DNA from: Raphidiopsis brookii D9
GTDB taxonomy: Bacteria; Cyanobacteriota; Cyanobacteriia; Cyanobacteriales; Nostocaceae
Assembly (NCBI GenBank): GCA_000175855.1
Contig: ACYB01000042.1
Span: forward strand, 150,001 to 182,000
Length of the DNA stretch: 32,000 nt
Reading direction: 5' to 3'
The notes under the pieces were generated by a model. It was not told the origin of the DNA, did not search any database, and worked only from the letters and a program-made list of their open reading frames with translations. Both the position numbers and the translations under genes were made by a program. Shown here piece by piece: positions 7,934 to 31,002 of this stretch. Every line of letters begins with the position of its first letter. The first letter of the stretch is position 1.

Positions 7934-9764
7934 CTAAAAGTTGCTATAGTTGATTATGGACTCCTGCATTTTCTCGACAACTTTTTCGACGGGTATCACA
8001 CCTAGTTCACCAGATGCACGCGTGCGAATACTCAGAGAATTAGTTTCCACCTCTTTGGCACCTACTACCGCCATCACCGGTATTTTATCTTTCTCCCCAT
8101 TACGGATTAGTTTGGCCAGGCGATCGCCACTTAGGTCTGCTTGAGCTCTAATTCCCAACTCTGTCATTTTCCTAGCTATTTCTTTGGTGAACTCAATTTG
8201 TTGTTCACCAACTGGTAGCAGTCGAATTTGTACTGGTGCTAACCAGAGGGGAAAATCTCCTGCATATTCTTCAATTAAAATGCCAATCAGTCTTTCTAGG
8301 GAACCAAAGGGAGCTCGGTGAATCATAACTGGGCGTTTTCGGGACCCATCCTCCGCTACATATTCTAGGTCAAACCTTTCCGGTAGATTGTAGTCCACCT
8401 GTACTGTTCCCAATTGCCATTCTCTTTCTAAAACATCGCTGAAGATAAAGTCCAGTTTTGGACCATAAAAAGCTGCTTCCCCTATACCTTCAAAGTGATC
8501 CATTCCCAACTGCTGCACCGCACGACGAATTGCTCCCTCTGCTTTATCCCAAACTTCGTCCCCACCAATGTATTTATCACTGGTCGGATCTCTAAAACTC
8601 AATCTCGCTTTAAAATTCTTAAGTTGTAAACTTCTAAATACGGTCAAGATTAAATCTACAACATTTAAAAACTCTCCATCTAATTGCTCTGGTGTGACAA
8701 ATAAATGGGAATCATCCACGGTAAAACCTCGTACACGGGTTAAACCTCCTAACTCACCGGACTGCTCATAACGGTAAACTGTGCCAAATTCTGCCAAGCG
8801 CATGGGTAATTCTCGGTAAGAACGCAGTTCACTTTTATATATTTGAATATGAAATGGGCAGTTCATGGGTTTGAGGACAAAACCCTGGTCTAGGGCTTTT
8901 GATTCCTCATTTTCAGCCATCATGGGAAACATATCTTCTTTGTATTTTTGCCAGTGTCCCGATGTTTTAAATAAATCTACTCTGGCAATATGGGGGTAAC
9001 CACTGGTAAATAACCCCTTTTTAACTGTTCTTTTTTGAGGAAATCTTCTAAGATGCTTCTCAATAAGGTACCTTTGGGGGTCCATAAGGGTAAACCTGGA
9101 CCTACAGGGTCAGAGAAAATAAATAAACCCAATTCTTTACCAATTTTACGATGGTCACGTCTTAAAGCTTCTTCTTTGCGACGTTTATATTCTCCTAGCT
9201 GTTCGGGGGTTTCCCATGCAGTGGCATAAATACGCTGCAATTGAGCTTTAGTTTCATCACCACGCCAGTAAGCACCTGCAACGCTTTCTAGTTCGATAGC
9301 TTTGGGATTGATATCCTTAGTGTTTTCTACATGGGGACCTGCACATAAATCCCACCATTCATCCCCTAAGTGATAAATAGTGATTGGTTCTTGTTTAATA
9401 TCTGCCAAAATCTCTAATTTATATGGCTCCTGAATTTTTTCGATCCGTTTTTTAGCTTCCTCTCGACTGACTTCTTCCCGTATCAAGGGTAATTTACGGT
9501 TAATAATCTTCACCATTTCTTTTTGAATGGCTTTTAAATCTTTATCGCTAAAGGGTTCTGGGTTATCAAAGTCATAGTAAAAACCATTCTCAATCCACGG
9601 ACCTATGGTCACTTGCGCCTTGGGAAACAGCTTTTGTACTGCCATGGCCATGATATGGGAAGCACTATGGCGAATTTTTTTTAAGGTCTCTGATTCGCTG
9701 GTCTTGGGTAAATAAATTTTTCCGTTGGTTTTTCTAGATTTTGAGCTTCTTGATTTGACGACAT
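7934..9764 (-). pseudogene. thrS: threonyl-tRNA synthetase interrupted by two 1-nt frameshifts; possibly intact if these are sequencing errors
   Basis: It reads in three frame segments: 9764-~9719, ~9718-8995 and 8994-7934. It has the editing-domain HxxxH (RHSASHIMAMA), class II motif 2 (YRYEQSGELGGLTRVRGFTVDDSH), motif 3 (GSLERLIGILIEEYAG) and a C-terminal anticodon-binding domain. The frames join if the T5 run at 9717-9721 and the G5 run at 8992-8996 (+ strand) are each read as 6. Confidence 0.85.
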
Positions 9765-11084: not shown

Positions 11085-13055
11085 ATGAGCATTTCGACTT
11101 CCGTGCTGAGTGATTTGCTACAGTCACTATCTCATCTACGTCCCCAGTTATATTTCAAGGCTTCACTAACCGCACTTTCCCATGCGATGGAAGACCAGAT
11201 TTTGGGGACTATCTTGGGTGAACCACTAATTATTGCCAGTTTCCAGCGAGAGCGGTTTTATCGTCAAGAAGCTCATCGCTATGAGCGTCTTGGTGAGCGT
11301 AGCAGTCAGGTATATGTATTGTCTGCACTAGAAACTGAGTTTACTAGTAGTTCAGGATCTTATGAAAAAGTTGCTTTTACACCAGAGGATGCTTTAAGCA
11401 AAGAGTGGCACTTGGTTGTGATTGCAGATAATTATGCTACTTGTTTAGTGTGTCGAGAAAGTGTTAAATCGGTTGTTAAAAGTCAGCAAGTACCAGAGAC
11501 GAGTTCTGTCCTGGATATGGATACCTCAAGAAGATTTGAGGGGATTTGGACAGCTGACAGGACTGTTAGTATTAAAGCAGCGGACTTATTATTAAGCAGA
11601 ATTGTGGCCTATCGTCCTGATTTGAAGGACAAGGTGGTTGATGTACGTAAACGGTTTAATATTAAAGAATTGACAAAATCCGTTCAGAGAAAGAAGATAG
11701 GGGGACGGGAAATTGATACGGATCCTTTTGTTAGACGATTAGTAACTTATTTACAGGCCAGTCAGTATAAGTTACATAAGGCCTACCGCTCTCTTACTGT
11801 TCAAGCTAGGAAAGAAAGACTGATTAATTCTATTAGTATGGCTATTAGGCGCTCACTGGATCCAAAACAAATTTTGCAAGTCGCTGCGCAGGAATTGGGA
11901 GATCATTTAGCAGCGGGTCGTTGTTTGATTTATCGTGCTCAGTCTAGTGATGTGAGGGCAAATATTGAACATGAATTTCTGGATCAGGGTTTATCATCGG
12001 TTTTAGGACAAACCTGGGATTTACAACGTCACTCTCTATTTCAAGAAATTGTGGATAAACAGGAGGGAGTATGTGTGGGTGATGCGACAACCGATCCACG
12101 AGTTAAAGATTCTCCTTACTTGTCCTCTATAGCAGGTAAATTTAATATTCGTTCCTGGTTGATGGAACCTGTATTATTTCAGGGGAGATTGCTGGGTATT
12201 GTGGAACTACACTATTGTTATTTTCCTACCTGTGATTGGCAACCAGGAGAGCTAGATTTAGTCAAGGCGATCGCGACTCAAGTGGGTTCAGCTTTAATTC
12301 AAGCCGAATCATTTACTAATTTGGAAGAGCTAAATAAACAACTAGAGGCTTTAGACCGAACTCGCAGCAATCTAATTGCTATTACTGGACATGAGTTGCG
12401 AACTCCCCTTTCCACCATTCAAGTGTGTTTAGAAAGTTTGGCCACTGAGCCAGATATGCCCAACGATTTACGGCAAGTGATGTTAAATACAGCTCTTGCA
12501 GACTCAGAGAGAATGCGTAAACTAGTGCAAGACTTCCTCACCCTTTCTAATTTGGAAAGTGGGAATGTGGAATGGCATACAGAATCTTTAATTCTCAAGG
12601 AGTGTGTGGATTTAGCATTAAGTCGCATGCGTATAAGGTCTAACAAAGAAAAATCCCCCCAGGTAAGTAGTGAGATTCCCCTAAATTTACCCTTGGTGAA
12701 AGCGGATGGAGATTGGCTAGTGGAAGTATTAGCCAAACTGATAGATAATGCTTATAAATTCACTTCCCCCTCGGGAAGGATTACAATTAAAGCTAAACAA
12801 AATCGTAGTGACCAAGTATTGGTTACTGTAGGTGATACAGGTCGGGGCATTGATCGGGATGCGTTGGAAATAGTATTTGACCGGTTTTATCAAGAGGAGG
12901 GAGCCTTGAGGCGAACTACTGGAGGAACAGGATTGGGTTTAGCGATTTGTCGTCAAATAGTTAATGCTTGGGGGGGAAGAATTTGGGCTGAGTCAGAGGG
13001 TAAAGATAAGGGAAGCCAATTTCATTTTACTATTCCTATCATGCGGGGAAGATAG
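11085..13055 (+). CDS. sensor histidine kinase: N-terminal DICT-like sensory region, GAF domain, HisKA, HATPase_c
   Basis: 656 aa. It has the H-box HELRTPLSTI, N-box LIDNAYKFT, G1 VGDTGRGI and G2 GGTGLGLAICRQIV. A central GAF-like segment is present (LDPKQILQVAAQELG...GRLLGIVELH). The N-terminus (LYFKASLTALSHAMEDQIL...IASFQRERFYRQEAHRYERL) resembles DICT domains as I recall them. Confidence 0.85.
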   Translation: MSISTSVLSDLLQSLSHLRPQLYFKASLTALSHAMEDQILGTILGEPLIIASFQRERFYRQEAHRYERLGERSSQVYVLSALETEFTSSSGSYEKVAFTPEDALSKEWHLVVIADNYATCLVCRESVKSVVKSQQVPETSSVLDMDTSRRFEGIWTADRTVSIKAADLLLSRIVAYRPDLKDKVVDVRKRFNIKELTKSVQRKKIGGREIDTDPFVRRLVTYLQASQYKLHKAYRSLTVQARKERLINSISMAIRRSLDPKQILQVAAQELGDHLAAGRCLIYRAQSSDVRANIEHEFLDQGLSSVLGQTWDLQRHSLFQEIVDKQEGVCVGDATTDPRVKDSPYLSSIAGKFNIRSWLMEPVLFQGRLLGIVELHYCYFPTCDWQPGELDLVKAIATQVGSALIQAESFTNLEELNKQLEALDRTRSNLIAITGHELRTPLSTIQVCLESLATEPDMPNDLRQVMLNTALADSERMRKLVQDFLTLSNLESGNVEWHTESLILKECVDLALSRMRIRSNKEKSPQVSSEIPLNLPLVKADGDWLVEVLAKLIDNAYKFTSPSGRITIKAKQNRSDQVLVTVGDTGRGIDRDALEIVFDRFYQEEGALRRTTGGTGLGLAICRQIVNAWGGRIWAESEGKDKGSQFHFTIPIMRGR

Positions 13056-19247: not shown

Positions 19248-19422
19248 CTGACACTAGAGATTAGTAAGGATTGATATGAGTCCCTGTTACTTTAACTTGC
19301 CACTAGGCACAAAGAAACAAAACTAGGATAGACAAGGTTGGGGGGGAGAGTTCAAAGATTCCATAATACATAATATTAAGATATAAATGTTGAGAATACT
19401 GACAGTATCCCCCACCTATTTT

Positions 19423-20535
19423 ATGAAAATTGCCCTATTCACCGAAACTTTTTTACCCAAGGTTGATGGCATTGTCACCCGTCTGTCTCACACAGTTGAC
19501 CATCTACAACGAGATGGACATCAGGTTATGCTGTTTTGTCCGGAAGGAGGTATTAAAGAATATAAAGGAGCAAAAGTGTATGGAGTTAGTGGTTTTCCCT
19601 TACCTCTTTATCCAGAGTTAAAATTGGCACTACCCCGTCCTGCTATTAGTCATGTATTACAACAGTTTGCTCCAGATCTAATTCATGTGGTAAATCCAGC
19701 AGTTTTAGGACTATCAGGGATTTTGCACAGTAAATTGCACAAAATCCCTTTAGTAGCCTCCTATCATACACATTTGCCACAGTATTTACAACATTACGGA
19801 CTAAGTTTCCTAGAAGGGCTACTATGGGAACTACTCAAGATTGCTCACAATCAAGCAGCTTTGAATCTGTGCACCTCCACAGCCATGGTTGAAGAATTAG
19901 CAGCCCACGGAATAGAAAGACTCGATTTGTGGCAACCGGGGGTGGACACAGAACTCTTCCATCCTGATTTAGCCAGTCAGGAAATGCGCTCCTATCTATC
20001 CCAAGGTTATCCAGATAGTCCTTTACTATTGTATGTAGGTCGCCTTTCAGCAGAGAAAGAGATTGAACAGATTAAACCTATTTTGGAAGCCATTCCCCAT
20101 GGACGTTTAGCCCTGGTGGGGGATGGACCCCATCGACAAAACTTACAAAATCACTTTGCCCACACTAATACCCATTTTGTAGGTTACCTCAAGGGTCAAC
20201 AATTGGCCTCGGCCTTTGCTAGTGCCGATGTGTTTGTCTTTCCCTCCCGTACGGAAACCTTGGGATTAGTATTATTAGAAGCCATGGCTGCGGGTTGTCC
20301 AGTAATTGCCGCTCGGTCTGGGGGGATTCCCGACATTGTCACTGATGGTGTGGATGGTTACCTTTTTGACCCTAGTTCACCTATTCAACAAGCTATTGAC
20401 CTCACAATTAAGTTGTTAAGAGAAAAACAGGAGATTGCCACTATGCGTAGTAATGCCCGTAAGAAGGCAGAGCAAATGGGATGGTCTGCTGCTGTAAGAC
20501 AACTACAAGAGTACTATCAGAGAACATTAAATTAA
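19423..20535 (+). CDS. sqdX: sulfoquinovosyl-diacylglycerol synthase (GT4 glycosyltransferase)
   Basis: I set the start at MKIALFTETFLPKVDGIVTR, the typical SqdX N-terminus. It has the GT4 motif ETLGLVLLEAMAAGCPVIA. It follows sqdB. Confidence 0.85.
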   Translation: MKIALFTETFLPKVDGIVTRLSHTVDHLQRDGHQVMLFCPEGGIKEYKGAKVYGVSGFPLPLYPELKLALPRPAISHVLQQFAPDLIHVVNPAVLGLSGILHSKLHKIPLVASYHTHLPQYLQHYGLSFLEGLLWELLKIAHNQAALNLCTSTAMVEELAAHGIERLDLWQPGVDTELFHPDLASQEMRSYLSQGYPDSPLLLYVGRLSAEKEIEQIKPILEAIPHGRLALVGDGPHRQNLQNHFAHTNTHFVGYLKGQQLASAFASADVFVFPSRTETLGLVLLEAMAAGCPVIAARSGGIPDIVTDGVDGYLFDPSSPIQQAIDLTIKLLREKQEIATMRSNARKKAEQMGWSAAVRQLQEYYQRTLN

Positions 20536-20822
20536 GAATCAGATTCACTTTCCGGTGGGAAACTTTTACCTATTCTGAGTTGTTTCTTAGAGCGTTTTAA
20601 TTGTTTCCACAGAGACTTGATTTGTTCATAAGCATCCTCAGGAGGAAGTTTACCACCGGTTTCTAAGTTACAAATATAACTAACTCTCTGAGCAAACTCC
20701 TGGAGATTGGCATTAAAAACTAGATTTTCGGGTTGTACATGACCATAGTAGCGACCACGGGGATAGAGGAAATCATCTTTTTTGTCCACTATTTTTTTCT
20801 CCATATACTTAATTAATCTCAT
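20532..20822 (-). CDS. hypothetical protein
   Basis: 96-aa ORF with an alternative start at M7 (20804). The C-terminus is basic. Its 3' end overlaps the sqdX stop by 4 nt. No assignable motif. Confidence 0.4.
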   Translation of the reverse strand: MRLIKYMEKKIVDKKDDFLYPRGRYYGHVQPENLVFNANLQEFAQRVSYICNLETGGKLPPEDAYEQIKSLWKQLKRSKKQLRIGKSFPPESESDS

Positions 20823-21815: not shown

Positions 21816-24097
21816 ATGAGTAAAAAACATTTATCTCCTGTATTTTTGGTAACGGTAGCTATAGCTGCCAGCTTGGAAAGTTCCTTGAGTGCTAGTGGAC
21901 AAGTTTCCAGTCAGTCTCAACAGGTATTAGGTGGAGCAAGTATTAAAGCAAGCCAGTTATCATCTAGTAACCTATATGTTAACGGTGAGACTTTTATTGG
22001 ACAAACAGCACCAGCAACTCCTAATGGCAATGGGAATGCAGTAGATAATAATCAACCTGATAGTCAGCCAGCTAATCCTAATCAACCTGATAGTCAGCCA
22101 GCTAATTCTAATCAACCTGATAGTCAGCCAGCTAATCCTAATCAACCTGATAGTCAACCAGCTAATCCTAACCAACCTGATAGTCAACCAGCTAATCCTA
22201 ACCAACCTGATAGTCAGCCAGCTAATCCTAATAATACAGAAGAACCAGCAGAACCTAGAGTACTGATTTCAGAAGTGGTGGTCAAGTCAGCGGTTGGACA
22301 ACTCCCATCGGAAATAGAAACCCAAGTTTACCAGGTTATTCGTACTAAAGCTGGACAGACTACAACCCGGTCACAATTACAAGAGGATATTAACGGAATA
22401 TTTGCCATTGGGTTTTTTACTAATGTACAAGCAGTTCCAGAAGATACGCCATCAGGTGTTAGAATAACTTTTATAGTTAGTCTTAATCCCGTACTTACCA
22501 AAGTAGAACTAAATGCCAATCCTGGTGCTGGAGTGGCTTCTGTTATAGCTGCTGATACCGTCGATAAAATCTTTAGTCAGCAATATGGTAAAGTAATTAA
22601 CCTACGTGATTTGCGAGCTGGGATCGCGCAATTAACCAAAGAGTATCAAGACAAAGGTTACGTACTGGCTAACTTAATAGCAGCTCCCAAAGTTTCTGAG
22701 ACAGGAGTGATCACCTTACAAGTAGCTGAGGGAATAGTAGAAAATGTCCAGGTTGCCTTTCGCAATAAGGAAGGCCAAGATGTGGACGACAAAGGTCGAC
22801 CCATTCGGGGAAGAACACAAGACTATATTATTAAGCGGGAAATGCAATTAAAACCTGGTCAAGTGTTCAACCGCAATATCGTCCAAAAAGACCTACAAAG
22901 GGTTTTCGGACTCGGTTTATTTGATGATATTAATGTGTCCCTCAACCCTGGAACAGACCCAAGTAAAGTTGTTGTTGTAGTAAATGTGACTGAGCGTAAT
23001 AGTGGTTCCATCGCCGTAGGGGGAGGTATTAGTTCTGCCAGTGGATTATTTGGCACCATTAGCTACCAAGAACAAAATCTATCAGGTAGAAACCAAAAGC
23101 TGGGATCAGAACTGCAAATTGGACAACGAGAACTCTTATTTGACTTGCGATTTAGCGATCCTTGGATTGACGGCGATCCCTATCGTACTTCCTATACAAC
23201 CAATGTTTTTCGCCGTCGTTCGATTTCTCTGGTGTTTGAAGGTAAGGACAGCAACATAAAAACCTTTAACCCTGATAATACTACTGATGTAAATAGTCAG
23301 GCAACCCCCCGCATTGCCCGCTTGGGCGGCGGAGTTTCTTTCGGTCGTCCCCTTTCCACCAATTTATATGAGAATTCAGAATGGTTTGCCTCCCTAGGTT
23401 TGCAATATCAAAGGATTTCCAGTCGTGATGCCAATGGTAATATTAGACCCCAAGGGGCAGTTTTTGATAACAGTGGCAATCGACTCAGCCCAACTATTCC
23501 TCTCACCCAGTCCCCCACCGGTGAAGATGATTTGTTCTTGTTACAATTCAGCGCCCAAAGCGATCGCCGGAACAATGCATTGCAACCAACTAATGGTTCT
23601 TACTTGCGTGTGGGACTAGATCAATCTGTACCCATAGGACAAGGTAGTATACTAATGTCTAGGGTGAGGGCCAACTACAGTTACTACGTACCCACAAAAC
23701 TGCTGGGATCTAAAAATCCAGAAACCCTTGCTTTTAACCTACAAGGGGGTACAATATTAGGTGATTTACCACCTTATGAAGCCTTTAGCCTGGGGGAAGT
23801 AATTCCGTGAGGGGTTACGATGAGGGTAAGTTGGCAGCGGGACGTACTTATGTCCAAGCGTCAGCAGAATATCGTTTTCCTATATTCTCAGTGGTTGGTG
23901 GGTCTCTATTTTTTGATTGTGGTAGTGATCTGGGCAGTGCTACCAGAGCAGCTGAAATCCTCAATAAGAATGGGAGCGGTTATGGTTATGGCTTGGGATT
24001 GCGTATTCAGTCACCACTGGGTCCTATTCGCATTGACTATGGTATAAGTGATAAAGGTGATAGCCGGATCAACTTTGGTATAGGGGAAAGGTTCTAA
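21816..24097 (+). pseudogene. bamA: Omp85/BamA-family outer-membrane protein (Toc75-like) with one 1-nt frameshift near the 3' end; possibly intact if this is a sequencing error
   Basis: It has a signal peptide, a Pro/Gln-rich repeat region, POTRA-like segments and a beta-barrel. ORFs 21816-23810 and 23807-24097 join as ...PPYEAFSLGGSNSVRGYDEGKL... if the G5 run at 23792-23796 is read as G6. The protein ends ...GIGERF, a typical C-terminal Phe for outer-membrane proteins. Confidence 0.85.
22050..22229 (+). repeat. 6 x 30-bp tandem repeat encoding NQPDSQPAN(P/S)
   Basis: The unit aatcaacctgatagtcagccagctaatcct is repeated head to tail six times. Each unit carries 1-2 substitutions at most (t/c at 22106, g/a in cagcca/caacca, t/c in aat/aac). 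Confidence 0.95.
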
Positions 24098-24139: not shown

Positions 24140-25678
24140 ATGTCTTGTCTAAGTGTATCTATCGCCCGTTTAGTTAATAGTGGACCGAATAACTTTGCCG
24201 TTTGGGTAGTGAAAGCTCCCTATCCTAGCGGTTACGTTTTGCGTGACTGTATTTTTCCACCTCAACTTGCTGAAATTTGGGTAGAATGGCAGCAAATGTT
24301 TGGTGGTTTTGTAGACACCCATCACCTGGGGAAAGGATTGGTTGGGTCTGGGATGGGACAAACCACGGGTTCTTATAGTAATCGGTTAATGCAATCTTTA
24401 GGGATCAGTTTATGGCGTTGGCTATTTGATGGAGAAATTCTTAGCAGTCTAGAGCGCAGTCGTGGTCTAGCTATGGGAAGTAGTCAAAGATTGCGGTTGC
24501 AATTAGAAGTTCGTGAACCTGAATTGATTGGTTTGCCATGGGAAATTATGCAACCCGAAGCGGGTCATTCGGCAATCTCTCTCAACCAGGAGGTTTTGTT
24601 TAGTCGCACTATCAATCAGGTTGAACCAATAGCAAATTTATCAGCAGATTCCTCTTTAAACGTGTTGTTGGTTTTGGGGTACAATAGCAATCTAGAACTG
24701 GAAAAAGAGGCTACCATTCTGGAGAAAATCCTCCTAGAATCTAGTCCTCCTGGTGGGTATTACATATCAAACTGTTTGGTCAAAAAACTATTACAACCTA
24801 CACCAAAGCAGTTGATACAAGAACTGGAAACTAAGGCGTATAATGTGATTTTTTATGCAGGTCATGGTTTGCCCAATCCTGAGGGTGGGTTGTTGTATTT
24901 GACAGAGGAGCAGTCCATTAATGGTATAGAACTGGGTCAAGTGTTAGCTCATAGTGGAATTAAACTGGCAGTATTCAATGCCTGTTGGGGTGCACAACCA
25001 GCAGTGCATCACAAAGCAATACCCACTAGTAGTCTGGCAGAGGTTTTAATTTGTCATGGTGTGCCTGCAGTTTTAGCCATGCGTGACGAAATTGCCGATC
25101 AGGAAAGTCGTAGTTTTATTCAGGGGTTTACTCAGGCATTGCGCATGGGTGAAGCGATTGATGCAGCTGTAGCAGTGGCTAGACAAAAATTATTAGCTAT
25201 TTACAAGTTTAATCAGCCAGCATGGACTTTACCGGTTCTCTATCTACACCCAGATTTTTCAGGTCAGTTGATTAGAAGTGTTGATGAGGGAATTACAGAA
25301 TTGCCAGATCTAACTACTGGAATAAATGTTCCCCAGTTCAGTGCTGTTTTGCGCTCAGTTTCCCCCCAGGGTCAAAGTTGCTCCCTACGTTCCGATGTGA
25401 CTCGCATTGGTCGCACTAAGGATAATGACCTTGTGATTCCCCAAGTTTATGTTTCTAAGCACCATGCAGAAATACTTTGTAGAACCGTACTGGATGGTTC
25501 TCAACCAGTTGTTACTTACTATTTACAAGATTGCTCTACTTACGGAACAACTTGGTATTTAAATGATTATGGTTGGCAACGGGTTTTAAGGGAGGAGGTG
25601 GTGTTAACATCGGGAATGAAGTTAAAGTTTGGCAGTGCGAAGGGGGAAACATGGGAGTTTATGATTTTTGATGGTTAG
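24140..25678 (+). CDS. CHAT-domain (caspase-like) protease fused to a C-terminal FHA domain
   Basis: 512 aa. The CHAT entry motif is LRLQLEVREPELIGLPWEIM. The putative dyad is His242 in FYAGHG (24863-24865) and Cys282 in FNACWG (24983-24985). The C-terminal FHA signature is RIGR...VSKHHAEI...STYGTTW...LKFG. Confidence 0.8.
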   Translation: MSCLSVSIARLVNSGPNNFAVWVVKAPYPSGYVLRDCIFPPQLAEIWVEWQQMFGGFVDTHHLGKGLVGSGMGQTTGSYSNRLMQSLGISLWRWLFDGEILSSLERSRGLAMGSSQRLRLQLEVREPELIGLPWEIMQPEAGHSAISLNQEVLFSRTINQVEPIANLSADSSLNVLLVLGYNSNLELEKEATILEKILLESSPPGGYYISNCLVKKLLQPTPKQLIQELETKAYNVIFYAGHGLPNPEGGLLYLTEEQSINGIELGQVLAHSGIKLAVFNACWGAQPAVHHKAIPTSSLAEVLICHGVPAVLAMRDEIADQESRSFIQGFTQALRMGEAIDAAVAVARQKLLAIYKFNQPAWTLPVLYLHPDFSGQLIRSVDEGITELPDLTTGINVPQFSAVLRSVSPQGQSCSLRSDVTRIGRTKDNDLVIPQVYVSKHHAEILCRTVLDGSQPVVTYYLQDCSTYGTTWYLNDYGWQRVLREEVVLTSGMKLKFGSAKGETWEFMIFDG

Positions 25679-25774
25679 CACCGAGATTGTTTTTATTGTT
25701 TTTGCGGAAATTCCTAGCTGCTAACTGTAGCTCCTTAATAATACCAATTATGCGGATGAAGTTTGAGGCCCAAT

Positions 25775-26401
25775 ATGACTAATAATACAGGTGATTTAGA
25801 TAATCAGAAACCTTTCCTTCCCTCCGTGGATTGGGAATTGTTGACAGCAATATTAGAACCGGAAAATGAAACTTATCCTTGGAATCTCGCAAGTGATCAA
25901 GTAGATGCTTATTTTCAAAAACTAGCAGCACCACTGTACTCTGACCCACTATTTATGGAAAGTCTCGAGCAACAAGGGGAAAATTTCTATAATTCTCTTG
26001 ATCAGATCTGGTCTCAGGTTTATAACTCTAAAGCTGATCGTGATGAAAGACCACGCACTACCCTAAGTGATATTTTTGGTACGTTTGTTCCCTCCCACTA
26101 CCTTGATCAGATTATGGAAGCAGCAAAGAAAACCTTCCATAATATGGAACATTCTACCATTGAGAAGATTGTGGATTGTGTTCGATCCTTGTTACCTAAT
26201 TGGGATATGGAAGACCTATTAGTTTTGGCACGTCCTATTGCTTATTCCATGAGAAGTGGTCAGTCGGACTACAACTTACCAAATCGCAATTGGACTGAAT
26301 TATCAGAGGTAGAACGGGCAAAGATTTGTTTAGTAGTGGCTGACTATGCCTTAAAAGCAGTTTCTACGCAAGCAGCAGAAAATGGAGTTACAAGAAAATA
26401 A
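25775..26401 (+). CDS. acidic hypothetical protein (orphan)
   Basis: I prefer the ATG at 25775 over the TTG at 25763. The protein is 208 aa, Asp/Glu-rich and has no TM segment. It carries a YPWN motif. Its stop lies 1 nt from the stop of the convergent FHA-PrsW gene. Confidence 0.5.
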   Translation: MTNNTGDLDNQKPFLPSVDWELLTAILEPENETYPWNLASDQVDAYFQKLAAPLYSDPLFMESLEQQGENFYNSLDQIWSQVYNSKADRDERPRTTLSDIFGTFVPSHYLDQIMEAAKKTFHNMEHSTIEKIVDCVRSLLPNWDMEDLLVLARPIAYSMRSGQSDYNLPNRNWTELSEVERAKICLVVADYALKAVSTQAAENGVTRK

Positions 26402-26402
26402 C

Positions 26403-27761
26403 TTATTTAGGATCCAGAAACCGGGTGGCAAAATTATGCGATCGCGTAGGTGATAATACTCGAGCTTTGAGGATAGCAGCCATCAAGAAAGCATAGGACA
26501 AAACACCCACAATTACTAATAGTAGAGCATTAATGGAACCGGTAGCATTCCAGAGAGCATGGAGAGCGGAGGCGGTGAAATAACCAACACCCAGGATTTG
26601 CCAACTCATGCGGGGTTTGAGGGTAGCCAAACCGATGAAATAGCCCAAATAACCACTATAGGCCATGTGTCCAGCTACGGAACCCAAAATCCGGGGGATA
26701 AGTAACTGTAAACCAATCAGTTGACCAGTACCTAGTCCCGATTGCTGACTAATATTTTGGGTGATTATAGGAACATATTGACCAAGGGTCTCTAGGAGAG
26801 TAAATCCCACCGCTGATGCAGTCCCTAGAAGAATACCATCTAGTGGTTCCTCAACCCCTATTCTTTCCCTCCAGGGGGATGGTAGGGATTTGCCTAAAAA
26901 ATAGGCGCCTATTACGGGTAAGGTCTTGAGTAGTTCCTCCATTAACCCAGCTCCGAAAAACATTCTGATCAATAATTCTGTGAATGTGTCACTATCGGAG
27001 GGTGAGGTGCTACCAGGAAGAATTTCTCGAAAAACAAATATAAATAAATCTAATAATGGACTGACTAAAATCAACATGGTACTTAGGGCCATAGCCATAA
27101 GTATCCACCATGGTTTTTGTTTGCCACAAATTCGATAAACGAAATAATAAGCAGCTGAGCCAATATAAGAACCAACAATTACTTGATTAGCTTGGGGGTA
27201 ACCTATGGTAGCAAACATTAACACGACAAAAATAACTGTTAGTATTCCTGGTATAAGATATGCTTTGCGAGTTAAGTCCTTACCTGTGGAGATTATAGGA
27301 AATAACTGGGTGAAACTAACTCCATCATGCTTTGATAGTTGTTGAGTTGTTTTTCCTGGTACTATAACTGTAGGTGGGTTAACTGGGACATTTCTGGACA
27401 CAGGTATAGTTTCACATTCAAAAACAAATTGAGGACCATCATAACCCAAAGAAATGTGGTCGCCATTTTGTAGCTCTTGAGATCCCCGTAGTAGTTTTCC
27501 ATTGAGAAAAGTGCCATTAGCACTGTTCAAATCACAAATGGTCCAGGTGAACTTACTTTCTGGAGAGGGGGGACGAACAACCGCATGACGACGGGAGACC
27601 ATTCTATAGGTTATAGGGTCCAAGACAACCTCACAACTGGGGTCACGTCCCATAACCATTTCCTGATGGAAAAGCAGTGGGTAGCAGGATTCTGGACTGG
27701 AAACCGCTTCCCTAGACATCAGTCTCAAAAATACATTCTGTCTTGCGTTTTTGCCGATCAT
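26403..27761 (-). CDS. N-terminal FHA domain fused to a PrsW-family intramembrane protease
   Basis: 452 aa. The FHA signature is MGRD...VSRRHAVV...DLNSANGTFLNG...NGDHISLG (about residues 30-115). It is followed by about 7 TM segments carrying the PrsW/CAAX-type motifs EELLK (275-279), FTLLE (320-324), His365 and HALWN (401-405). Confidence 0.8.
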   Translation of the reverse strand: MIGKNARQNVFLRLMSREAVSSPESCYPLLFHQEMVMGRDPSCEVVLDPITYRMVSRRHAVVRPPSPESKFTWTICDLNSANGTFLNGKLLRGSQELQNGDHISLGYDGPQFVFECETIPVSRNVPVNPPTVIVPGKTTQQLSKHDGVSFTQLFPIISTGKDLTRKAYLIPGILTVIFVVLMFATIGYPQANQVIVGSYIGSAAYYFVYRICGKQKPWWILMAMALSTMLILVSPLLDLFIFVFREILPGSTSPSDSDTFTELLIRMFFGAGLMEELLKTLPVIGAYFLGKSLPSPWRERIGVEEPLDGILLGTASAVGFTLLETLGQYVPIITQNISQQSGLGTGQLIGLQLLIPRILGSVAGHMAYSGYLGYFIGLATLKPRMSWQILGVGYFTASALHALWNATGSINALLLVIVGVLSYAFLMAAILKARVLSPTRSHNFATRFLDPK

Positions 27762-27792: not shown

Positions 27793-28278
27793 TTATTCAT
27801 TAGTTATCAGTGAACTTGTAGCTGGATCCAAATCAAATTCCGCCATTGCTCTGGGAAAATTTTTATTTTCATGACTGGGGAGACTTAACTTGACCAGTAC
27901 AAATCTTTGTAATGGAGTTAAATCTTGCCACTGCTCCAGGGCGATCATAGCACCTAGGGTCTCTAATTTTTCAATAAGTTGTTTAGGTAGGGTGGTAGAA
28001 TCTAACCAAGGGGGATGGGGATCTGTAGGAAGCAAAGAAGGATAGGTTCCTGTGTATTTAAAAACCAATTCCTTTAAATAGTTTTGGTAGTTTTGTATTT
28101 CACCTGGTGTAAAGCAGGGTAATGTAACTAGAGTATCACGTTCTGAGAGACTAATCTGATGCCAATGAGCCAATTTTAGTTTAACTCCACATGTATCCAG
28201 CTTGTAACGGACTATCATGGGTATACAACGAAGGGTAGACATAAAATCAGCTTCAAATTGAAAAAATTCGGTAGACAT
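27793..28278 (-). CDS. narM: nitrate reductase-associated protein (NarM-like)
   Basis: 161 aa. FQFEADFMSTLRCIPMIVRYKLDTCGVKLKL matches the nitrate-reductase-associated family as I recall it. It lies downstream of narB on the same strand. Confidence 0.6.
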   Translation of the reverse strand: MSTEFFQFEADFMSTLRCIPMIVRYKLDTCGVKLKLAHWHQISLSERDTLVTLPCFTPGEIQNYQNYLKELVFKYTGTYPSLLPTDPHPPWLDSTTLPKQLIEKLETLGAMIALEQWQDLTPLQRFVLVKLSLPSHENKNFPRAMAEFDLDPATSSLITNE

Positions 28279-28321
28279 AACGGGAAATTTAGGATTGTTA
28301 TGAGCAGTTATTGTTGTTCAA

Positions 28322-28771
28322 CTAACTTTTACGACGACTTTGGATAATTAGATAGCTAATAGATAGAGATAGTATGGCAATTCCCAACCCAATAATATCA
28401 ATTCCTGTCACTTTTTCCAAGTCTAGGATAATGATTTTTCTGGCAACAGCAATTAAAGAAGTAACAATCACTAATTCTACTTGAAAAACATGCTTTTTCA
28501 GGTAGGCTGTAATGTTTTCTAAAATTTCTAAAGCAATGAGAATATTTAAAAACAAACCGAATATCTTAAATAAAATGGTGTTAAACTTGCCGTAGGGAGC
28601 ATCAAATAACTCTTTTAGGAGAAAAACTGTTAAGTCCGCAATAGCCACAAGAATTACGACCACCATTAAAATAGAAAGAATCTTAGAAACTATCACCACA
28701 ATATTTTCAATCAAGTGCATGAAATTATCATCACTGGTAAAAGTTTTCAGTTGCCTAAAAAACCTCTTCAT
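28322..28771 (-). CDS. PsiE-like (phosphate-starvation-inducible E family) membrane protein
   Basis: 149 aa with 4 TM segments. LNILIALEILENITAYL and TSLIAVARKIIILD are typical of the PsiE family. Confidence 0.55.
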   Translation of the reverse strand: MKRFFRQLKTFTSDDNFMHLIENIVVIVSKILSILMVVVILVAIADLTVFLLKELFDAPYGKFNTILFKIFGLFLNILIALEILENITAYLKKHVFQVELVIVTSLIAVARKIIILDLEKVTGIDIIGLGIAILSLSISYLIIQSRRKS

Positions 28772-28871: not shown

Positions 28872-31002
28872 CTAGGATTGAATAGGAATTATGGGAATTA
28901 ACTGTACAGCACAGGCTTTCAATTCTGGTTGAAAAGAGTCCGGACAAGACGCAGAATGGGTAAGAGCATTAGCTTCAGAATTTTCTGCCCATAGTTTACC
29001 CCAATGTATAGGGACAAAAACAGTACCAGGGGAGATAGTCAAAGTAATTTTAGCAGGAAATTCCGCTGCACCACGACGGGAACGAACCATAACTAACTGA
29101 TGATCAGCAAGCTGTAACTTGAGCGCATCACGGGGATGAATTTCCAAAAAGGGCTCAGGGTGCATTTGACAAATCTTATCAATTCTTCCTGTACGTGTTT
29201 GGGTATGCCAATGACCATATAATCTTCCTGAAGTGAGAATAAAGGGATATTCAGGGTCTGGAGGTTCAGCTAAGCCATGGGAAAAACATGCGGCAAACTG
29301 AGCTTTGCCATCATGAGTATAAAAATGTAAATCTGTATATAATCGTTTAACTTCCTGATAATTATCTTGAGAGAAAGGCCAATGAGTTGGGCCATTAGTA
29401 GTTAAAAACTCATGACTTAAACCCGACATATCGCAGGGACGATGAAGAGTTAATTGGACAAATTCCCGATAAACCTCACTAGAATCCTGAAAATTAAAAC
29501 TGATGTGAAAAACCCAACCTTCTACCAACCTCAGCGAAGATTTCCCAATCAGATTTAGCCAATTGCGGAGGATTTTTAAAAGCAGAACATAGGGTGATGC
29601 GACGTTCCGAATTAGTCATCACCCCAGTTTTTTCACCCCATTGAGCAGCGGGTAATAGAAGATGAGCATAGTTAGCAGTTTCTGTGGGATAATAGGCATC
29701 CTGATAAATAGTAAAAGGGGATTGTAACAATGCTTTTTTAGTTCTTTCTAAATCTGGCATACTTACAGCTGGATTAGTTGCTGCTATCCATAATAGCTGC
29801 ACATTACCAGACTCCAAAGCCATAATCATTTCCCACACATTTAACCCAGGAATAGGTGAAATAGTACCTGGTGGTAAACCCCAAAATTCCTCCACTTCTA
29901 ACCGATGTTGTGGATTTTTAATTAATCTGTATCCGGGCAATAAATGTGCTAAACCACCCGCTTCCCTACCACCCATAGCATTAGGTTGACCCGTTAAAGA
30001 AAAAGGACCTGCACCTGGTTTTCCCACCTGTCCTGTGAGGAGATGTAAATCAATAATACTTCTTACCTTAGCAGTCCCTTCAGAAGATTGGTTCACACCC
30101 ATTGACCATAAAGAAAGAACAGATTGGGCTTGACCCCAATATTTAGCAGCGGTTTCTAAATCTGCCAAAGAAATACCACATCGACTGGTAACAAGATCCG
30201 GAGAATAATAATTAATGACCTGGATATAATCTGGGAAATTGCTAGTGTAATTATCCACAAAATTTACATCCCAAGAATTCCATTTCACCAATAGATGGGC
30301 AATACCATTCAACAAATCAATATCAGTACCTGGAACAATGGCTAAATGTAAATCAGCTGTTTTAGCGGTGGGAGTGGAACGGGGGTCAACCACCACCATT
30401 TTCACGTGAGGATTTTTCTTATGATATTTAGTTAATCGATTAAAAATAATGGGGTGACATTCTGCAGTATTGGTACCTATTAAAAAAACGCAGTCAGTTA
30501 ATTCCAAATCATCATAACAGCAAGGAGGACCATCAGCACCAAAACTTTGGAGATATCCAGATACTGCACTAGACATACAAAGACGGGAATTAGCATCGAA
30601 GTTATTAGTTCCTAAACAACCTTTCAGTAATTTTTGGGCAATATAATAATCTTCAGTTTGAAACTGTCCAGAGCCGTACATACAGATAGATTCTGGACCA
30701 TAACTAACTAAAGTTTGTTGAATATGATTTGTAATGATAGTGAAGGCTTCCTCCCAGGAAATCAGGCGAAAATCTTGTGTTAAAGATTCTCGAAACATGG
30801 GATATTGCAATCTATTTTTACATATTGCTTCCGCAACAGTTGCGCCTTTAACACATACCATTCCTTGACTAGAAGGATGAGATTTATCTCCACGAACACG
30901 CCAATTATCTGTAGTGAAACTTGGAGGTTGGGTAAGGGAAGAGACTTCCAGTCCACAACCCACACCACAATAGGGACAAAGTGTTTTGATAAATTCGGTC
31001 AT
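28872..31002 (-). pseudogene. narB: assimilatory ferredoxin-nitrate reductase (Mo-bisMGD) with one 1-nt frameshift; possibly intact if this is a sequencing error
   Basis: The N-terminal 4Fe-4S motif is [12 protein letters not shown]...VCVKG. ORFs 29494-31002 and 28872-29528 join as ...[22 protein letters not shown]... if the A4 run at 29496-29499 (+ strand) is read as A3. Confidence 0.9.

What the first reader, a model, noticed from the sequence alone, without database searches (positions are those of the whole stretch)
24140..27761. Two FHA-tethered proteases of different catalytic classes converge on an acidic orphan gene
The sequence shows three adjacent genes. The first is CHAT (caspase-like Cys protease)-FHA on the + strand. 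The second is a 208-aa acidic protein with no recognisable domain, also on the + strand. The third is FHA-PrsW (polytopic intramembrane metalloprotease-like) on the - strand. The last two genes end 1 nt apart. Both FHA domains keep the canonical Arg / Ser-x-x-His phosphothreonine-binding residues. From established knowledge, FHA domains read pThr marks written by Hanks-type Ser/Thr kinases. CHAT proteases act in heterocyst development (HetF) and in prokaryotic conflict or defence systems. PrsW is the site-1 protease that triggers sigma-W release in B. subtilis. My inference is a phosphorylation-gated proteolytic switch pairing one soluble and one membrane protease, possibly acting on or with the orphan protein. 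I know of no described system with this pairing. No kinase or phosphatase gene is present in the window.
Basis: partly seen in the sequence, partly recalled or inferred. Interest (0 to 1): 0.75.

Follow-up and report, generated by a model that had tools for sequence, protein, structure and literature searches.

The report
Conserved phospho-signalling protease gene cluster
Three neighbouring genes in a filamentous cyanobacterium (a HetF-like protease, a small acidic protein of unknown fold, and a membrane protease) are part of an undescribed gene cluster that other cyanobacteria keep together with a protein phosphatase, which suggests a phosphorylation-controlled protein-cutting switch that nobody has tested.

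Summary
The window (Cylindrospermopsis raciborskii) encodes CHAT-FHA (24140-25678, +), a 208-aa acidic orphan (25775-26401, +) and FHA-PrsW (26403-27761, -). The last two stop codons are 1 nt apart.

They are conserved in 91-120 orthologues.

Linkage is real but graded. In 80 Nostocales loci, CHAT-FHA precedes the orphan in 80 and FHA-PrsW converges on it in 72. In 46 non-Nostocales lineage groups the figures are 29/37 and 19/38. PrsW is never adjacent without CHAT-FHA.

A new finding is a membrane-anchored zinc-ribbon PP2C phosphatase directly upstream of CHAT-FHA in 73/80 Nostocales and 14/29 other loci. It has been displaced from this window.

The orphan is a family of filamentous cyanobacteria. 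It is all-helical, has no Pfam, NCBIfam or PDB relative, and has no conserved Thr. It does have an invariant Arg motif that resembles the HetF cleavage site in PatU3.

Best reading: a pThr/FHA/PP2C-controlled proteolysis module whose core is a HetF-paralogue protease and its partner protein. It is not a catalogued defence system, is not on plasmids, and is not described in the literature searched.

Caveat: housekeeping genes ndhM and def are co-conserved too, so part of the linkage may be ancient synteny. The mechanism is inferred.

The parts
24140..25678 (+). CHAT-FHA: a soluble HetF-paralogue clan-CD cysteine protease. It has a conserved N-terminal region (1-85), a CHAT domain (about 90-380, His242/Cys282), a linker with conserved T386-E-L-P389, and a C-terminal FHA domain (about 405-512, G424-R425, S439, H442).
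   Evidence: Pfam CHAT 5e-18 and FHA 1.6e-11. NCBIfam HetF model matched over positions 71-388 at 140 bits, far below the 1200 cutoff. No TM segment. H242 and C282 conserved 120/120, S439 118/120, H442 120/120, R425 109/120. T386 118/120 and P389 120/120.
25775..26401 (+). Acidic 208-aa partner protein (the 'orphan'), from an uncharacterised cyanobacterial family. Its N-terminus is predicted disordered and carries an invariant Y34-P35-W36 motif. It then has about 8 helices, with invariant D147, R153-P154, R160 (A-Y-S/A-M-R|S/G) and W173.
   Evidence: No Pfam, NCBIfam or PADLOC hit. 289 representative clusters in a profile search. Every named source calls it a hypothetical protein and is a filamentous cyanobacterium. 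AF2 model with a 122-sequence alignment has pLDDT 74.7 and is all-helical. No PDB fold match: best E about 2, TM below 0.25. Conservation. pI 4.54.
26403..27761 (-). FHA-PrsW: a polytopic membrane protease of the PrsW/CAAX (glutamic-type) superfamily. It has an N-terminal cytoplasmic FHA domain (R39, S56, H59, N82), a near-invariant juxtamembrane linker (QLFPIIS-T159-GKDL-T164-RKAYL), and a protease core (E275-E276-x-x-K279, H365, H401-x-x-x-N405).
   Evidence: Pfam PrsW-protease 7.6e-38 and FHA 2.3e-17. NCBIfam B. subtilis-type PrsW equivalog scores only 19.5 against a cutoff of 225. All listed residues conserved 91/91. Linker conservation. Orthologues across Nostocales are 72-80% identical.
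26399..26405 (.). Tail-to-tail junction. The stop codons of the orphan (TAA, +) and FHA-PrsW (TAA, -) are separated by a single base, and there is no terminator-like hairpin between them.
   Evidence: Sequence read directly. The terminator scan finds nothing here. In other genomes the gap is 14-320 bp.

Best explanation
The three genes are the part retained in Cylindrospermopsis of a conserved cyanobacterial module. The full module is: membrane PP2C phosphatase, then CHAT-FHA protease, then acidic helical partner, facing a convergent FHA-PrsW membrane protease.

Proposed mechanism (inferred, not shown):
1. An unlinked Hanks-type Ser/Thr kinase phosphorylates conserved threonines in juxtamembrane or linker segments. 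Candidates are K-T-Q-[V/I]-[I/L] in the PP2C protein, T159/T164 in FHA-PrsW and T386 in CHAT-FHA.
2. The FHA domains read these marks. This recruits or releases the two proteases at the membrane.
3. The PP2C erases the marks.
4. The tightest pair is the HetF-like CHAT protease and the partner protein encoded just downstream. I propose the partner is the protease's dedicated substrate or pseudosubstrate regulator, cut after the invariant Arg160 (or Arg153). This would parallel HetF cutting PatU3 after Arg117 and separase-securin.
5. FHA-PrsW is a second, membrane-embedded output of the same phospho-signal.

The family appears restricted to filamentous cyanobacteria and the protease is a HetF paralogue. 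The controlled process is therefore most likely linked to cell division, filament or envelope biology.

Shown: gene linkage, intact active sites and pThr pockets, and the phosphatase neighbour. Inferred: everything about who phosphorylates, binds or cleaves whom.
For: Linkage in Nostocales: CHAT-FHA lies upstream on the same strand in 80/80 loci, FHA-PrsW is convergent in 72/80, and PP2C is upstream in 73/80.

Linkage outside Nostocales (46 lineage groups, GC 0.38-0.58): CHAT-FHA adjacent in 29/37, FHA-PrsW in 19/38 and PP2C in 14/29. Both proteases are present in 17 groups, and PrsW is never present alone. As a control, the Nostocales right-hand neighbours NarM, PsiE and narB appear in none of those loci.

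L086 carries all four genes at 47-56% identity to the window or Nostocales versions, in a different flank. In Phormidium the order of the orphan and CHAT-FHA is swapped but they remain adjacent.

Active sites and pThr pockets are conserved 91/91 to 120/120. PP2C catalytic motifs are conserved (DGIGGH, GTT, HVGDSR, SDG, DNVT).

Conserved Thr residues lie in otherwise variable linkers. The clearest is PP2C T565, 88/89, with I/L at +3.

The CHAT domain is specifically HetF-like. HetF is a proven Arg-specific protease with a dedicated substrate (PMC9457339). The orphan has invariant Arg153 and Arg160, with Y-x-x-R followed by S/G at the end of a helix before a variable loop.

Zhang et al. 2012 independently predicted that FHA-fused PrsW proteins are signalling peptidases (PMC3482391).
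Against: No Hanks kinase is linked in any locus.

The housekeeping genes ndhM and def are co-conserved at the edges of the block (68/80 and 17 lineages). Some of the linkage could therefore be inherited gene order with no shared function.

FHA-PrsW is adjacent in only half of non-Nostocales lineages and is unlinked in about five Nostocales genomes that still encode it elsewhere. Some orphan homologues stand alone (L083-L085, L125, L142).

The orphan family has no conserved Thr.

The phosphate-contacting Arg of the CHAT-linked FHA is replaced in one sub-lineage that still keeps PP2C and PrsW. The two FHA domains are not similar beyond the core motif, so they need not read the same mark.

Intergenic gaps of 100-400 bp between CHAT-FHA and the orphan do not prove co-transcription.

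The substrate idea rests on analogy only. No complex prediction or experiment was possible.
Confidence: 0.55

Rival explanations
1. Inherited synteny without shared function. The genes sit in an old, slowly rearranging block (ndhM-PP2C-CHAT-FHA-orphan / FHA-PrsW-def). The two FHA proteases serve different pathways, and only CHAT-FHA and the orphan, or none of them, work together.
For: ndhM and def, which have no obvious tie to proteolysis or pThr signalling, are co-conserved. FHA-PrsW adjacency falls to 19/38 outside Nostocales and is broken in several Nostocales genomes that keep the gene elsewhere. This window itself has lost the PP2C neighbour. The two FHA domains are dissimilar.
Against: Cyanobacterial gene order is generally fluid: the Nostocales-specific neighbours NarM, PsiE and narB appear in none of the non-Nostocales loci. 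Yet PrsW, when adjacent, always accompanies CHAT-FHA (17 vs 0). Three of the four proteins carry pThr-signalling domains (FHA, FHA, PP2C), a thematic coherence that chance synteny does not predict. Adjacency of CHAT-FHA and the orphan survives an order swap.
Confidence: 0.25
2. FHA-PrsW works like B. subtilis PrsW. It would be a site-1 protease that cleaves a membrane anti-sigma factor (an RsiW analogue) to release an ECF sigma factor, with the FHA domain merely gating it, independently of CHAT-FHA and the orphan.
For: It is a member of the Pfam PrsW-protease family with the complete EE...K / H / H...N motif set. JGI annotates the orthologues as 'RsiW-degrading membrane proteinase PrsW'.
Against: The NCBIfam PrsW equivalog model scores 19.5 against a cutoff of 225, so it is not an orthologue of the B. 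subtilis enzyme. No sigma or anti-sigma gene recurs near it in 80 + 64 loci. Its only recurrent signalling neighbours are CHAT-FHA, the orphan and PP2C.
Confidence: 0.12
3. An anti-phage or conflict system in which a CHAT caspase-like effector and a PrsW protease are triggered by infection.
For: CHAT proteases and PrsW domains do occur in conflict systems (established knowledge; PrsW in polymorphic toxin processing, PMC3482391).
Against: PADLOC gives 0 hits for all four proteins. The genes are single-copy, highly conserved (FHA-PrsW 72-80% identity across Nostocales) and syntenic in the core chromosome. The orphan is absent from plasmids, and CHAT-FHA has only 24-28% identical paralogues there. 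Window GC content is unremarkable. Zhang et al. explicitly separate FHA-fused PrsW from the toxin-associated ones.
Confidence: 0.03

Closest known systems
HetF-PatU3 proteolytic pathway of Anabaena sp. PCC 7120 (PMC9457339)
   Same: The CHAT domain is specifically HetF-like (NCBIfam HetF model, 140 bits over the protease region) with the same His/Cys dyad. HetF is an Arg-specific protease with one dedicated substrate. The family is found in filamentous cyanobacteria.
   Different: The window protein is soluble and ends in an FHA domain, where HetF has a TM segment and periplasmic TPRs. It scores far below the HetF equivalog cutoff. The putative partner is encoded next door, whereas PatU3 is not next to hetF, and it has no detectable similarity to any annotated family. 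No substrate has been shown.
Separase-securin (clan CD, family C50)
   Same: A CHAT/separase-type cysteine protease is paired with a small acidic partner that could act as a pseudosubstrate or chaperone. In eukaryotes this pair is controlled by phosphorylation.
   Different: Securin is largely disordered, whereas the orphan is predicted mostly helical. The comparison is an analogy only, with no homology detected.
B. subtilis PrsW (site-1 protease of anti-sigma RsiW) and the PrsW/CAAX glutamic-type intramembrane protease superfamily
   Same: Pfam PrsW-protease domain with the complete catalytic motif set.
   Different: It is not an equivalog of B. subtilis PrsW (19.5 vs 225 bits). It carries an N-terminal FHA domain, and no sigma or anti-sigma gene is linked. 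FHA-PrsW fusions were noted but not studied in PMC3482391.
Actinobacterial fhaA-fhaB(fipA)-pstP-rodA-pbpA-pknA-pknB cluster, and the T6SS TagH(Fha)-PpkA-PppA switch
   Same: A conserved cluster combines FHA-domain proteins with a membrane-anchored PP2C phosphatase. Both FHA domains give weak hits to the FhaB/FipA and TagH models. The likely logic is a pThr mark being written, read and erased at the membrane.
   Different: No kinase is in the cluster. The FHA domains are fused to proteases, where those systems fuse them to scaffolding or secretion proteins. The lineage differs (cyanobacteria), and this window lacks the phosphatase.

Membership tests
CHAT domain proteases (Pfam PF12770, clan CD) | Profile match above the curated cutoff | tested here: met
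   65.9 bits vs cutoff 24, residues 90-353.
CHAT domain proteases (Pfam PF12770, clan CD) | Catalytic His...Cys dyad at the aligned positions | tested here: met
   H242 and C282 align to the His and Cys of PDB CHAT protein 8rot_B. Both are conserved 120/120.
HetF (NCBIfam NF045509, equivalog) | Full-length match at or above the equivalog cutoff (1200 bits) | tested here: not met
   140.5 bits, covering only model positions 71-388 of 836. This is a paralogue, not HetF.
HetF (NCBIfam NF045509, equivalog) | Architecture: CHAT plus TM segment plus periplasmic TPRs (PMC9457339) | tested here: not met
   No hydrophobic segment is present, and the C-terminus is an FHA domain.
FHA domain (Pfam PF00498) | Profile match above the cutoff in both proteins | tested here: met
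   44.9 and 63.6 bits vs cutoff 20.7.
FHA domain (Pfam PF00498) | pThr-pocket residues (Gly-Arg, Ser-x-x-His, Asn) | tested here: met
   FHA-PrsW: R39, S56, H59 and N82 conserved 91/91. CHAT-FHA: G424 120/120, S439 118/120, H442 120/120, R425 109/120, lost in one sub-lineage.
FHA domain (Pfam PF00498) | Actual binding of a phosphothreonine peptide | not testable with these tools
   Needs biochemistry. Candidate ligands are listed.
PrsW-protease family (Pfam PF13367) | Profile match above the cutoff, with the EExx[K/R], H and HxxxN motifs | tested here: met
   130.5 bits vs cutoff 23.5. E275, E276, K279, H365, H401 and N405 conserved 91/91.
B. subtilis-type PrsW (NCBIfam NF033739, equivalog; RsiW site-1 protease) | Equivalog-level match, with a linked or identifiable anti-sigma substrate | tested here: not met
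   19.5 bits vs cutoff 225. No sigma or anti-sigma gene recurs in 144 loci. A genome-wide search for a substrate was not possible.
FHA / Hanks-kinase / PP2C signalling cluster | PP2C phosphatase encoded next to the FHA proteins | tested here: inconclusive
   Met in 73/80 Nostocales and 14/29 other loci. Not met in this window.
FHA / Hanks-kinase / PP2C signalling cluster | Hanks-type Ser/Thr kinase encoded in the cluster | tested here: not met
   No kinase is among the recurrent neighbours or in the window.
Known anti-phage defence systems (PADLOC-DB v2) | Match to any defence-system protein model | tested here: not met
   0 hits for CHAT-FHA, the orphan, FHA-PrsW and PP2C.

The most novel reading that the evidence does not exclude
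A module specific to filamentous cyanobacteria in which phosphothreonine marks, erased by a dedicated membrane PP2C, gate two proteases of different classes. One is a HetF paralogue that cleaves, or is held in check by, its neighbouring acidic partner in a bacterial separase-securin-like pair. The other is an intramembrane PrsW. Together they would control cell division, septal or filament integrity, or differentiation. This would be a second regulated-proteolysis pathway alongside HetF-PatU3, and the first FHA-gated intramembrane protease to be assigned a role.
Probability: 0.25. Interest if true: 0.8.

Novelty: new variant of a known kind. Interest (0 to 1): 0.62.

Why it matters
Regulated proteolysis by HetF is the only CHAT-protease pathway with a known substrate in cyanobacteria, and it couples cell division to differentiation. 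This work defines a widely conserved paralogous protease with a genetically linked candidate partner, a linked phosphatase and a second, membrane-embedded FHA-protease. It also supplies concrete residues to mutate: C282, E275/E276, the FHA Arg and Ser residues, orphan R153/R160 and Y34-W36, and the conserved Thr sites. That makes two open questions directly testable in Anabaena or Nostoc genetics. The first is how Ser/Thr phosphorylation is converted into irreversible outputs in multicellular cyanobacteria. The second is what FHA-fused PrsW proteases do, a class predicted in 2012 and still uncharacterised. It also gives a first functional context to a family of hypothetical proteins found across filamentous cyanobacteria.

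Tried and rejected
- **Literature.** Seven full-text searches found no study of these genes. They covered PrsW+FHA+cyanobacteria, CHAT+FHA+Anabaena, HetF+FHA, guessed locus tags (alr0615-all0618, all1765-1770, Npun_1519-1523) and FHA+PP2C+PCC 7120. The locus tags were guesses, so absence is weak evidence. I could not map the genes onto the 'filamentous-only' list of Stucken et al. 2010.
- **Defence-system reading.** Rejected: PADLOC gives 0 hits, and plasmids carry only remote CHAT paralogues and no orphan.
- **NtcA control from the neighbouring nitrate cluster.** GTA-N8-TAC sites are no more frequent than chance and none lies in a relevant intergenic region. The promoter and terminator scans are uninformative.
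- **The orphan as the pThr ligand.** Rejected as a conserved feature: no Thr is conserved in 122 sequences.
- **The N-terminal 40-270 and C-terminal regions of the PP2C protein.** No Pfam match even at E = 10.
- **First metagenome scan.** It failed because the 34-sequence alignment was too diverse. It worked after restricting to the DLQVLARP subtype, which biases that sample towards one branch of the family.
- **Taxonomic identity of the orphan-only loci L083-L085.** This could not be established.


Full report
**1. What is in the sequence.**
The window comes from Cylindrospermopsis raciborskii. The middle protein is 100% identical to hypothetical protein B7O87_12350 of strain CENA303.

- 24140-25678 (+, 512 aa)
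- 25763/25775-26401 (+, 212/208 aa; homologues start at the second Met)
- 26403-27761 (-, 452 aa)

Pfam confirms CHAT plus FHA in the first protein and FHA plus PrsW-protease in the third. All four matches are well above the curated cutoffs. The middle protein matches nothing, and NCBIfam agrees.

Two details from NCBIfam matter:
- The CHAT domain is specifically HetF-like (140 bits over model positions 71-388) but far below the HetF equivalog cutoff of 1200. The protein is therefore a HetF paralogue, not HetF.
- The PrsW part scores only 19.5 against the B. subtilis-type PrsW equivalog (cutoff 225). It belongs to the superfamily but is not an orthologue of the RsiW protease.

A solved CHAT protein (8rot_B) aligns its His and Cys to the same columns.

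The middle protein is acidic (pI 4.54). The two convergent stop codons read TAA-c-TTA, 1 nt apart, with no terminator-like hairpin.

The window has no Hanks kinase or PP2C. It holds only an ABC1/UbiB-type kinase (6-1262) and a DICT-CHASE6-GAF histidine kinase (11085-13055).

**2. Is the neighbourhood conserved? Nostocales.**
A pattern scan with an alignment of orphan homologues found relatives in 210 species genomes, and 80 loci were fetched. Nearly all titles name heterocystous genera. Results from tblastn on the 80 loci:
- CHAT-FHA lies directly upstream on the same strand in 80/80.
- FHA-PrsW is convergent in 72/80.
- Three of the eight exceptions are truncated contigs. In five, the gene is absent from the 8-kb flank. 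Those genomes still encode FHA-PrsW on another contig, for example Desmonostoc vinosum, Anabaena FACHB-1237 and Cronbergia.

NarM, PsiE and narB further to the right are also syntenic (55-57 of 80). Nostocales synteny alone is therefore weak evidence of function.

Clustering all ORFs of the 80 loci gave the main new finding. A protein of about 750 aa lies directly upstream of CHAT-FHA, on the same strand, in 73/80 loci. It has an N-terminal zinc ribbon, a PP2C Ser/Thr phosphatase domain (Pfam PP2C_2 and PP2C) with the catalytic motifs conserved, one TM helix and a variable Pro-rich C-terminus.

This window has no copy. In Cylindrospermopsis the left side was rearranged, and Omp85/BamA and purC sit there instead; neither appears in any of the other 80 loci.

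**3. Is the neighbourhood conserved? Outside Nostocales.**
A profile search of 1.84 billion representative proteins found 289 orphan-family clusters. Named members come from these taxa:
- Phormidium
- Kovacikia and other Leptolyngbyaceae
- Okeania
- Trichodesmium
- Geitlerinemataceae
- Spirulina
- Nodosilinea
- Trichothermofontia
- Leptolyngbya

All are filamentous, and all entries are 'hypothetical protein'.

Gene-context look-ups gave a range of arrangements:
- **L086:** all four genes (PP2C, CHAT-FHA, orphan, convergent FHA-PrsW) at 47-56% identity to the window or Nostocales versions, GC 0.53, in a different flank.
- **L081/L082:** a Leptolyngbyaceae-like contig with only CHAT-FHA and the orphan.
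- **L087 (Phormidium CCY1219):** the orphan precedes CHAT-FHA. The order is swapped but the two remain adjacent.
- **L083-L085:** three loci where a longer orphan homologue stands alone.

A metagenome scan with the non-Nostocales subtype (motif DLQVLARP) added 64 loci. After collapsing near-identical loci into 46 lineage groups and counting only groups with enough flank:

| Neighbour of the orphan | Groups where adjacent |
|---|---|
| CHAT-FHA | 29/37 |
| FHA-PrsW (convergent, 14-320 bp away) | 19/38 |
| PP2C (upstream) | 14/29 |

Both proteases are present in 17 groups, CHAT-FHA alone in 8 or 9, and FHA-PrsW alone in none. NarM, PsiE and narB occur in none of these loci. The PrsW link is therefore deeper than ordinary Nostocales synteny.

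Peptide deformylase (17 lineage groups, beyond PrsW) and ndhM (9 groups, and 68/80 Nostocales loci, upstream of PP2C) are co-conserved as well. The ancestral order looks like ndhM - PP2C - CHAT-FHA - orphan, facing FHA-PrsW - def. Some of the linkage may be inherited gene order with no shared function.

**4. Are the proteins functional?**
Across 120 CHAT-FHA and 91 FHA-PrsW orthologues drawn from all loci:

| Site | Conservation |
|---|---|
| CHAT His242, Cys282 | 120/120 each |
| PrsW E275, E276, K279, H365, H401, N405 | 91/91 each |
| PrsW-linked FHA R39, S56, H59, N82 | 91/91 each |
| CHAT-linked FHA G424, H442 | 120/120 each |
| CHAT-linked FHA S439 | 118/120 |
| CHAT-linked FHA R425 | 109/120 |

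The R425 replacements (S, M, F, G) are confined to one non-Nostocales sub-lineage, which nevertheless often keeps PP2C and PrsW. The two FHA domains resemble each other only at the core motif (BLASTP E = 0.33). They are not recent duplicates and need not read the same mark.

**5. The orphan.**
In a 122-sequence alignment the invariant or near-invariant residues are Y34-P35-W36, W79, P106, D147, R153-P154, R160, W173 and S177.

No threonine is conserved. FHA domains are specific for pThr (established knowledge). The orphan is therefore unlikely to be the conserved FHA ligand.

AlphaFold2 with the deep alignment gives pLDDT 74.7. The N-terminus is of low confidence and contains the invariant YPW motif, which is typical of a docking motif. 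About eight helices follow. Foldseek against the PDB finds nothing (best E about 2, TM below 0.25).

HetF, the closest characterised relative of the neighbouring protease, cleaves its single known substrate PatU3 after Arg117, in the sequence ...N-Y-R|S-P... (PMC9457339). The orphan's invariant A-Y-[S/A]-M-R160|[S/G] lies at the end of a helix, just before a loop of variable length. This makes it a reasonable candidate P1 site. It is an inference from analogy, not a result.

**6. Candidate phospho-sites.**
Scanning the three other families for conserved Thr outside the folded domains gives three candidates:
- **PP2C protein:** T565 (L036 numbering) is conserved 88/89 within K-T-Q-[V/I]-[I/L]-P-E. 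It lies about 14 residues before the TM helix, in an otherwise unconserved region. Its +3 hydrophobic residue is typical of FHA ligands.
- **FHA-PrsW:** T159-G-K-D (90/91) and T164 (85/91), inside a near-invariant juxtamembrane segment.
- **CHAT-FHA:** T386-E-L-P389 (118/120 for T, 120/120 for P), in the inter-domain linker.

These are leads for experiments.

**7. How it most likely works.**
Shown:
- A conserved cluster of two catalytically intact proteases, each fused to an intact FHA domain.
- A partner protein of unknown fold, tightly linked to the soluble protease.
- A membrane PP2C linked in most genomes.

Inferred:
- An unlinked Hanks kinase writes pThr marks on juxtamembrane or linker threonines.
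- The FHA domains read them and thereby position or activate the proteases.
- The PP2C resets the system.
- The CHAT protease acts on, or is restrained by, its neighbour, in the manner of HetF-PatU3 or separase-securin.
- FHA-PrsW is a second, membrane output.

Given the HetF relationship and the apparently filamentous-only distribution, the process is probably related to division, septum or filament biology. I put about 0.55 on the four genes forming one functional pThr-proteolysis module. I put roughly 0.35 on the more specific claim that the orphan is the substrate or regulator of the CHAT protease.

**8. Rivals.**
- Pure inherited synteny, with PrsW acting independently (0.25).
- A B. subtilis-like PrsW/anti-sigma pathway unrelated to the CHAT pair (0.12).
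- A defence system (0.03). This is disfavoured by 0 PADLOC hits, chromosomal core-genome conservation and absence from plasmids.

**9. Known or new?**
The individual parts are known families. FHA-PrsW orthologues are routinely annotated, and Zhang et al. 2012 already remarked that FHA-fused PrsW proteins are probably signalling peptidases (PMC3482391).

I found no paper on any of the following in the searchable library:
- the CHAT-FHA protein
- the orphan family
- their linkage
- the PP2C neighbour

I rate this a new variant of a known kind: an FHA/PP2C phospho-signalling cluster whose readers are proteases. Interest is moderate to high (0.62). The reasons are that the module is widespread, coherent and experimentally tractable, and it extends the HetF paradigm. 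The mechanism, however, is still inference, and part of the linkage could be ancient synteny.

Noticed in passing
window 7934-9651 (thrS), 21816-24097 (omp85/bamA), 28872-31002 (narB): Three genes are each split into two overlapping ORFs in different frames. Every junction sits on a homopolymer run of 5-6 bases. narB is a single frame in other genomes, and thrS is essential. These are most likely indel errors in the assembly, not pseudogenes, so other ORF boundaries in this genome deserve caution.
   Followed up: partly
L001-L080, about 1.8-4 kb upstream of the orphan (e.g. L036:3866-6124); also L086:326-2713: A zinc-ribbon, PP2C-phosphatase, TM protein of about 750 aa lies directly upstream of CHAT-FHA in 73/80 Nostocales loci and 14/29 other lineages. 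It is absent from this window. Its residues 40-270 and its C-terminal region match no Pfam family.
   Followed up: yes
PP2C protein of L036, residue T565 (K-T-Q-[V/I]-[I/L]-P-E); window FHA-PrsW T159/T164; window CHAT-FHA T386: Isolated, nearly invariant threonines lie in otherwise variable juxtamembrane or linker segments. They are candidate phosphothreonine docking sites for the FHA domains.
   Followed up: partly
window 21816-23810 (Omp85 N-terminal region): The Omp85/BamA-like protein carries about seven tandem copies of the decapeptide N-Q-P-D-S-Q-P-A-N-P before its POTRA domains.
   Followed up: no
L087:3436-5916 (Phormidium sp. CCY1219): The gene order is inverted relative to all other loci: the orphan comes first and CHAT-FHA follows, on the same strand. 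Adjacency is kept despite the rearrangement.
   Followed up: partly
L090, L091, L101, L106, L107, L111, L121-L123, L127, L140 (CHAT-FHA orthologues): In one non-Nostocales sub-lineage the phosphate-contacting Arg after the conserved Gly of the CHAT-linked FHA is replaced by S, M, F or G, with an Arg two residues earlier. Ser and His are retained, and PP2C and PrsW are often still adjacent. This may be a shifted or non-canonical pThr pocket.
   Followed up: partly
L001-L080 upstream flank; L088-L151: ndhM and a gene of the Npun_R1517 family lie upstream of PP2C, and peptide deformylase lies beyond FHA-PrsW in non-Nostocales. All are co-conserved with the cluster, which points to an unusually old syntenic block in cyanobacteria.
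   Followed up: partly
window 27793-28771: NarM (nitrate reductase maturation protein) and a PsiE-family membrane protein sit between FHA-PrsW and narB. This trio is syntenic in about 55 of 80 Nostocales loci but in none of the non-Nostocales loci.
   Followed up: partly
window 20532-20822 (-) and 19387-20535 (+): A DUF7219 gene overlaps the 3' end of a convergent GT4 glycosyltransferase gene by 4 nt. This is a second tight tail-to-tail junction in the window.
   Followed up: no
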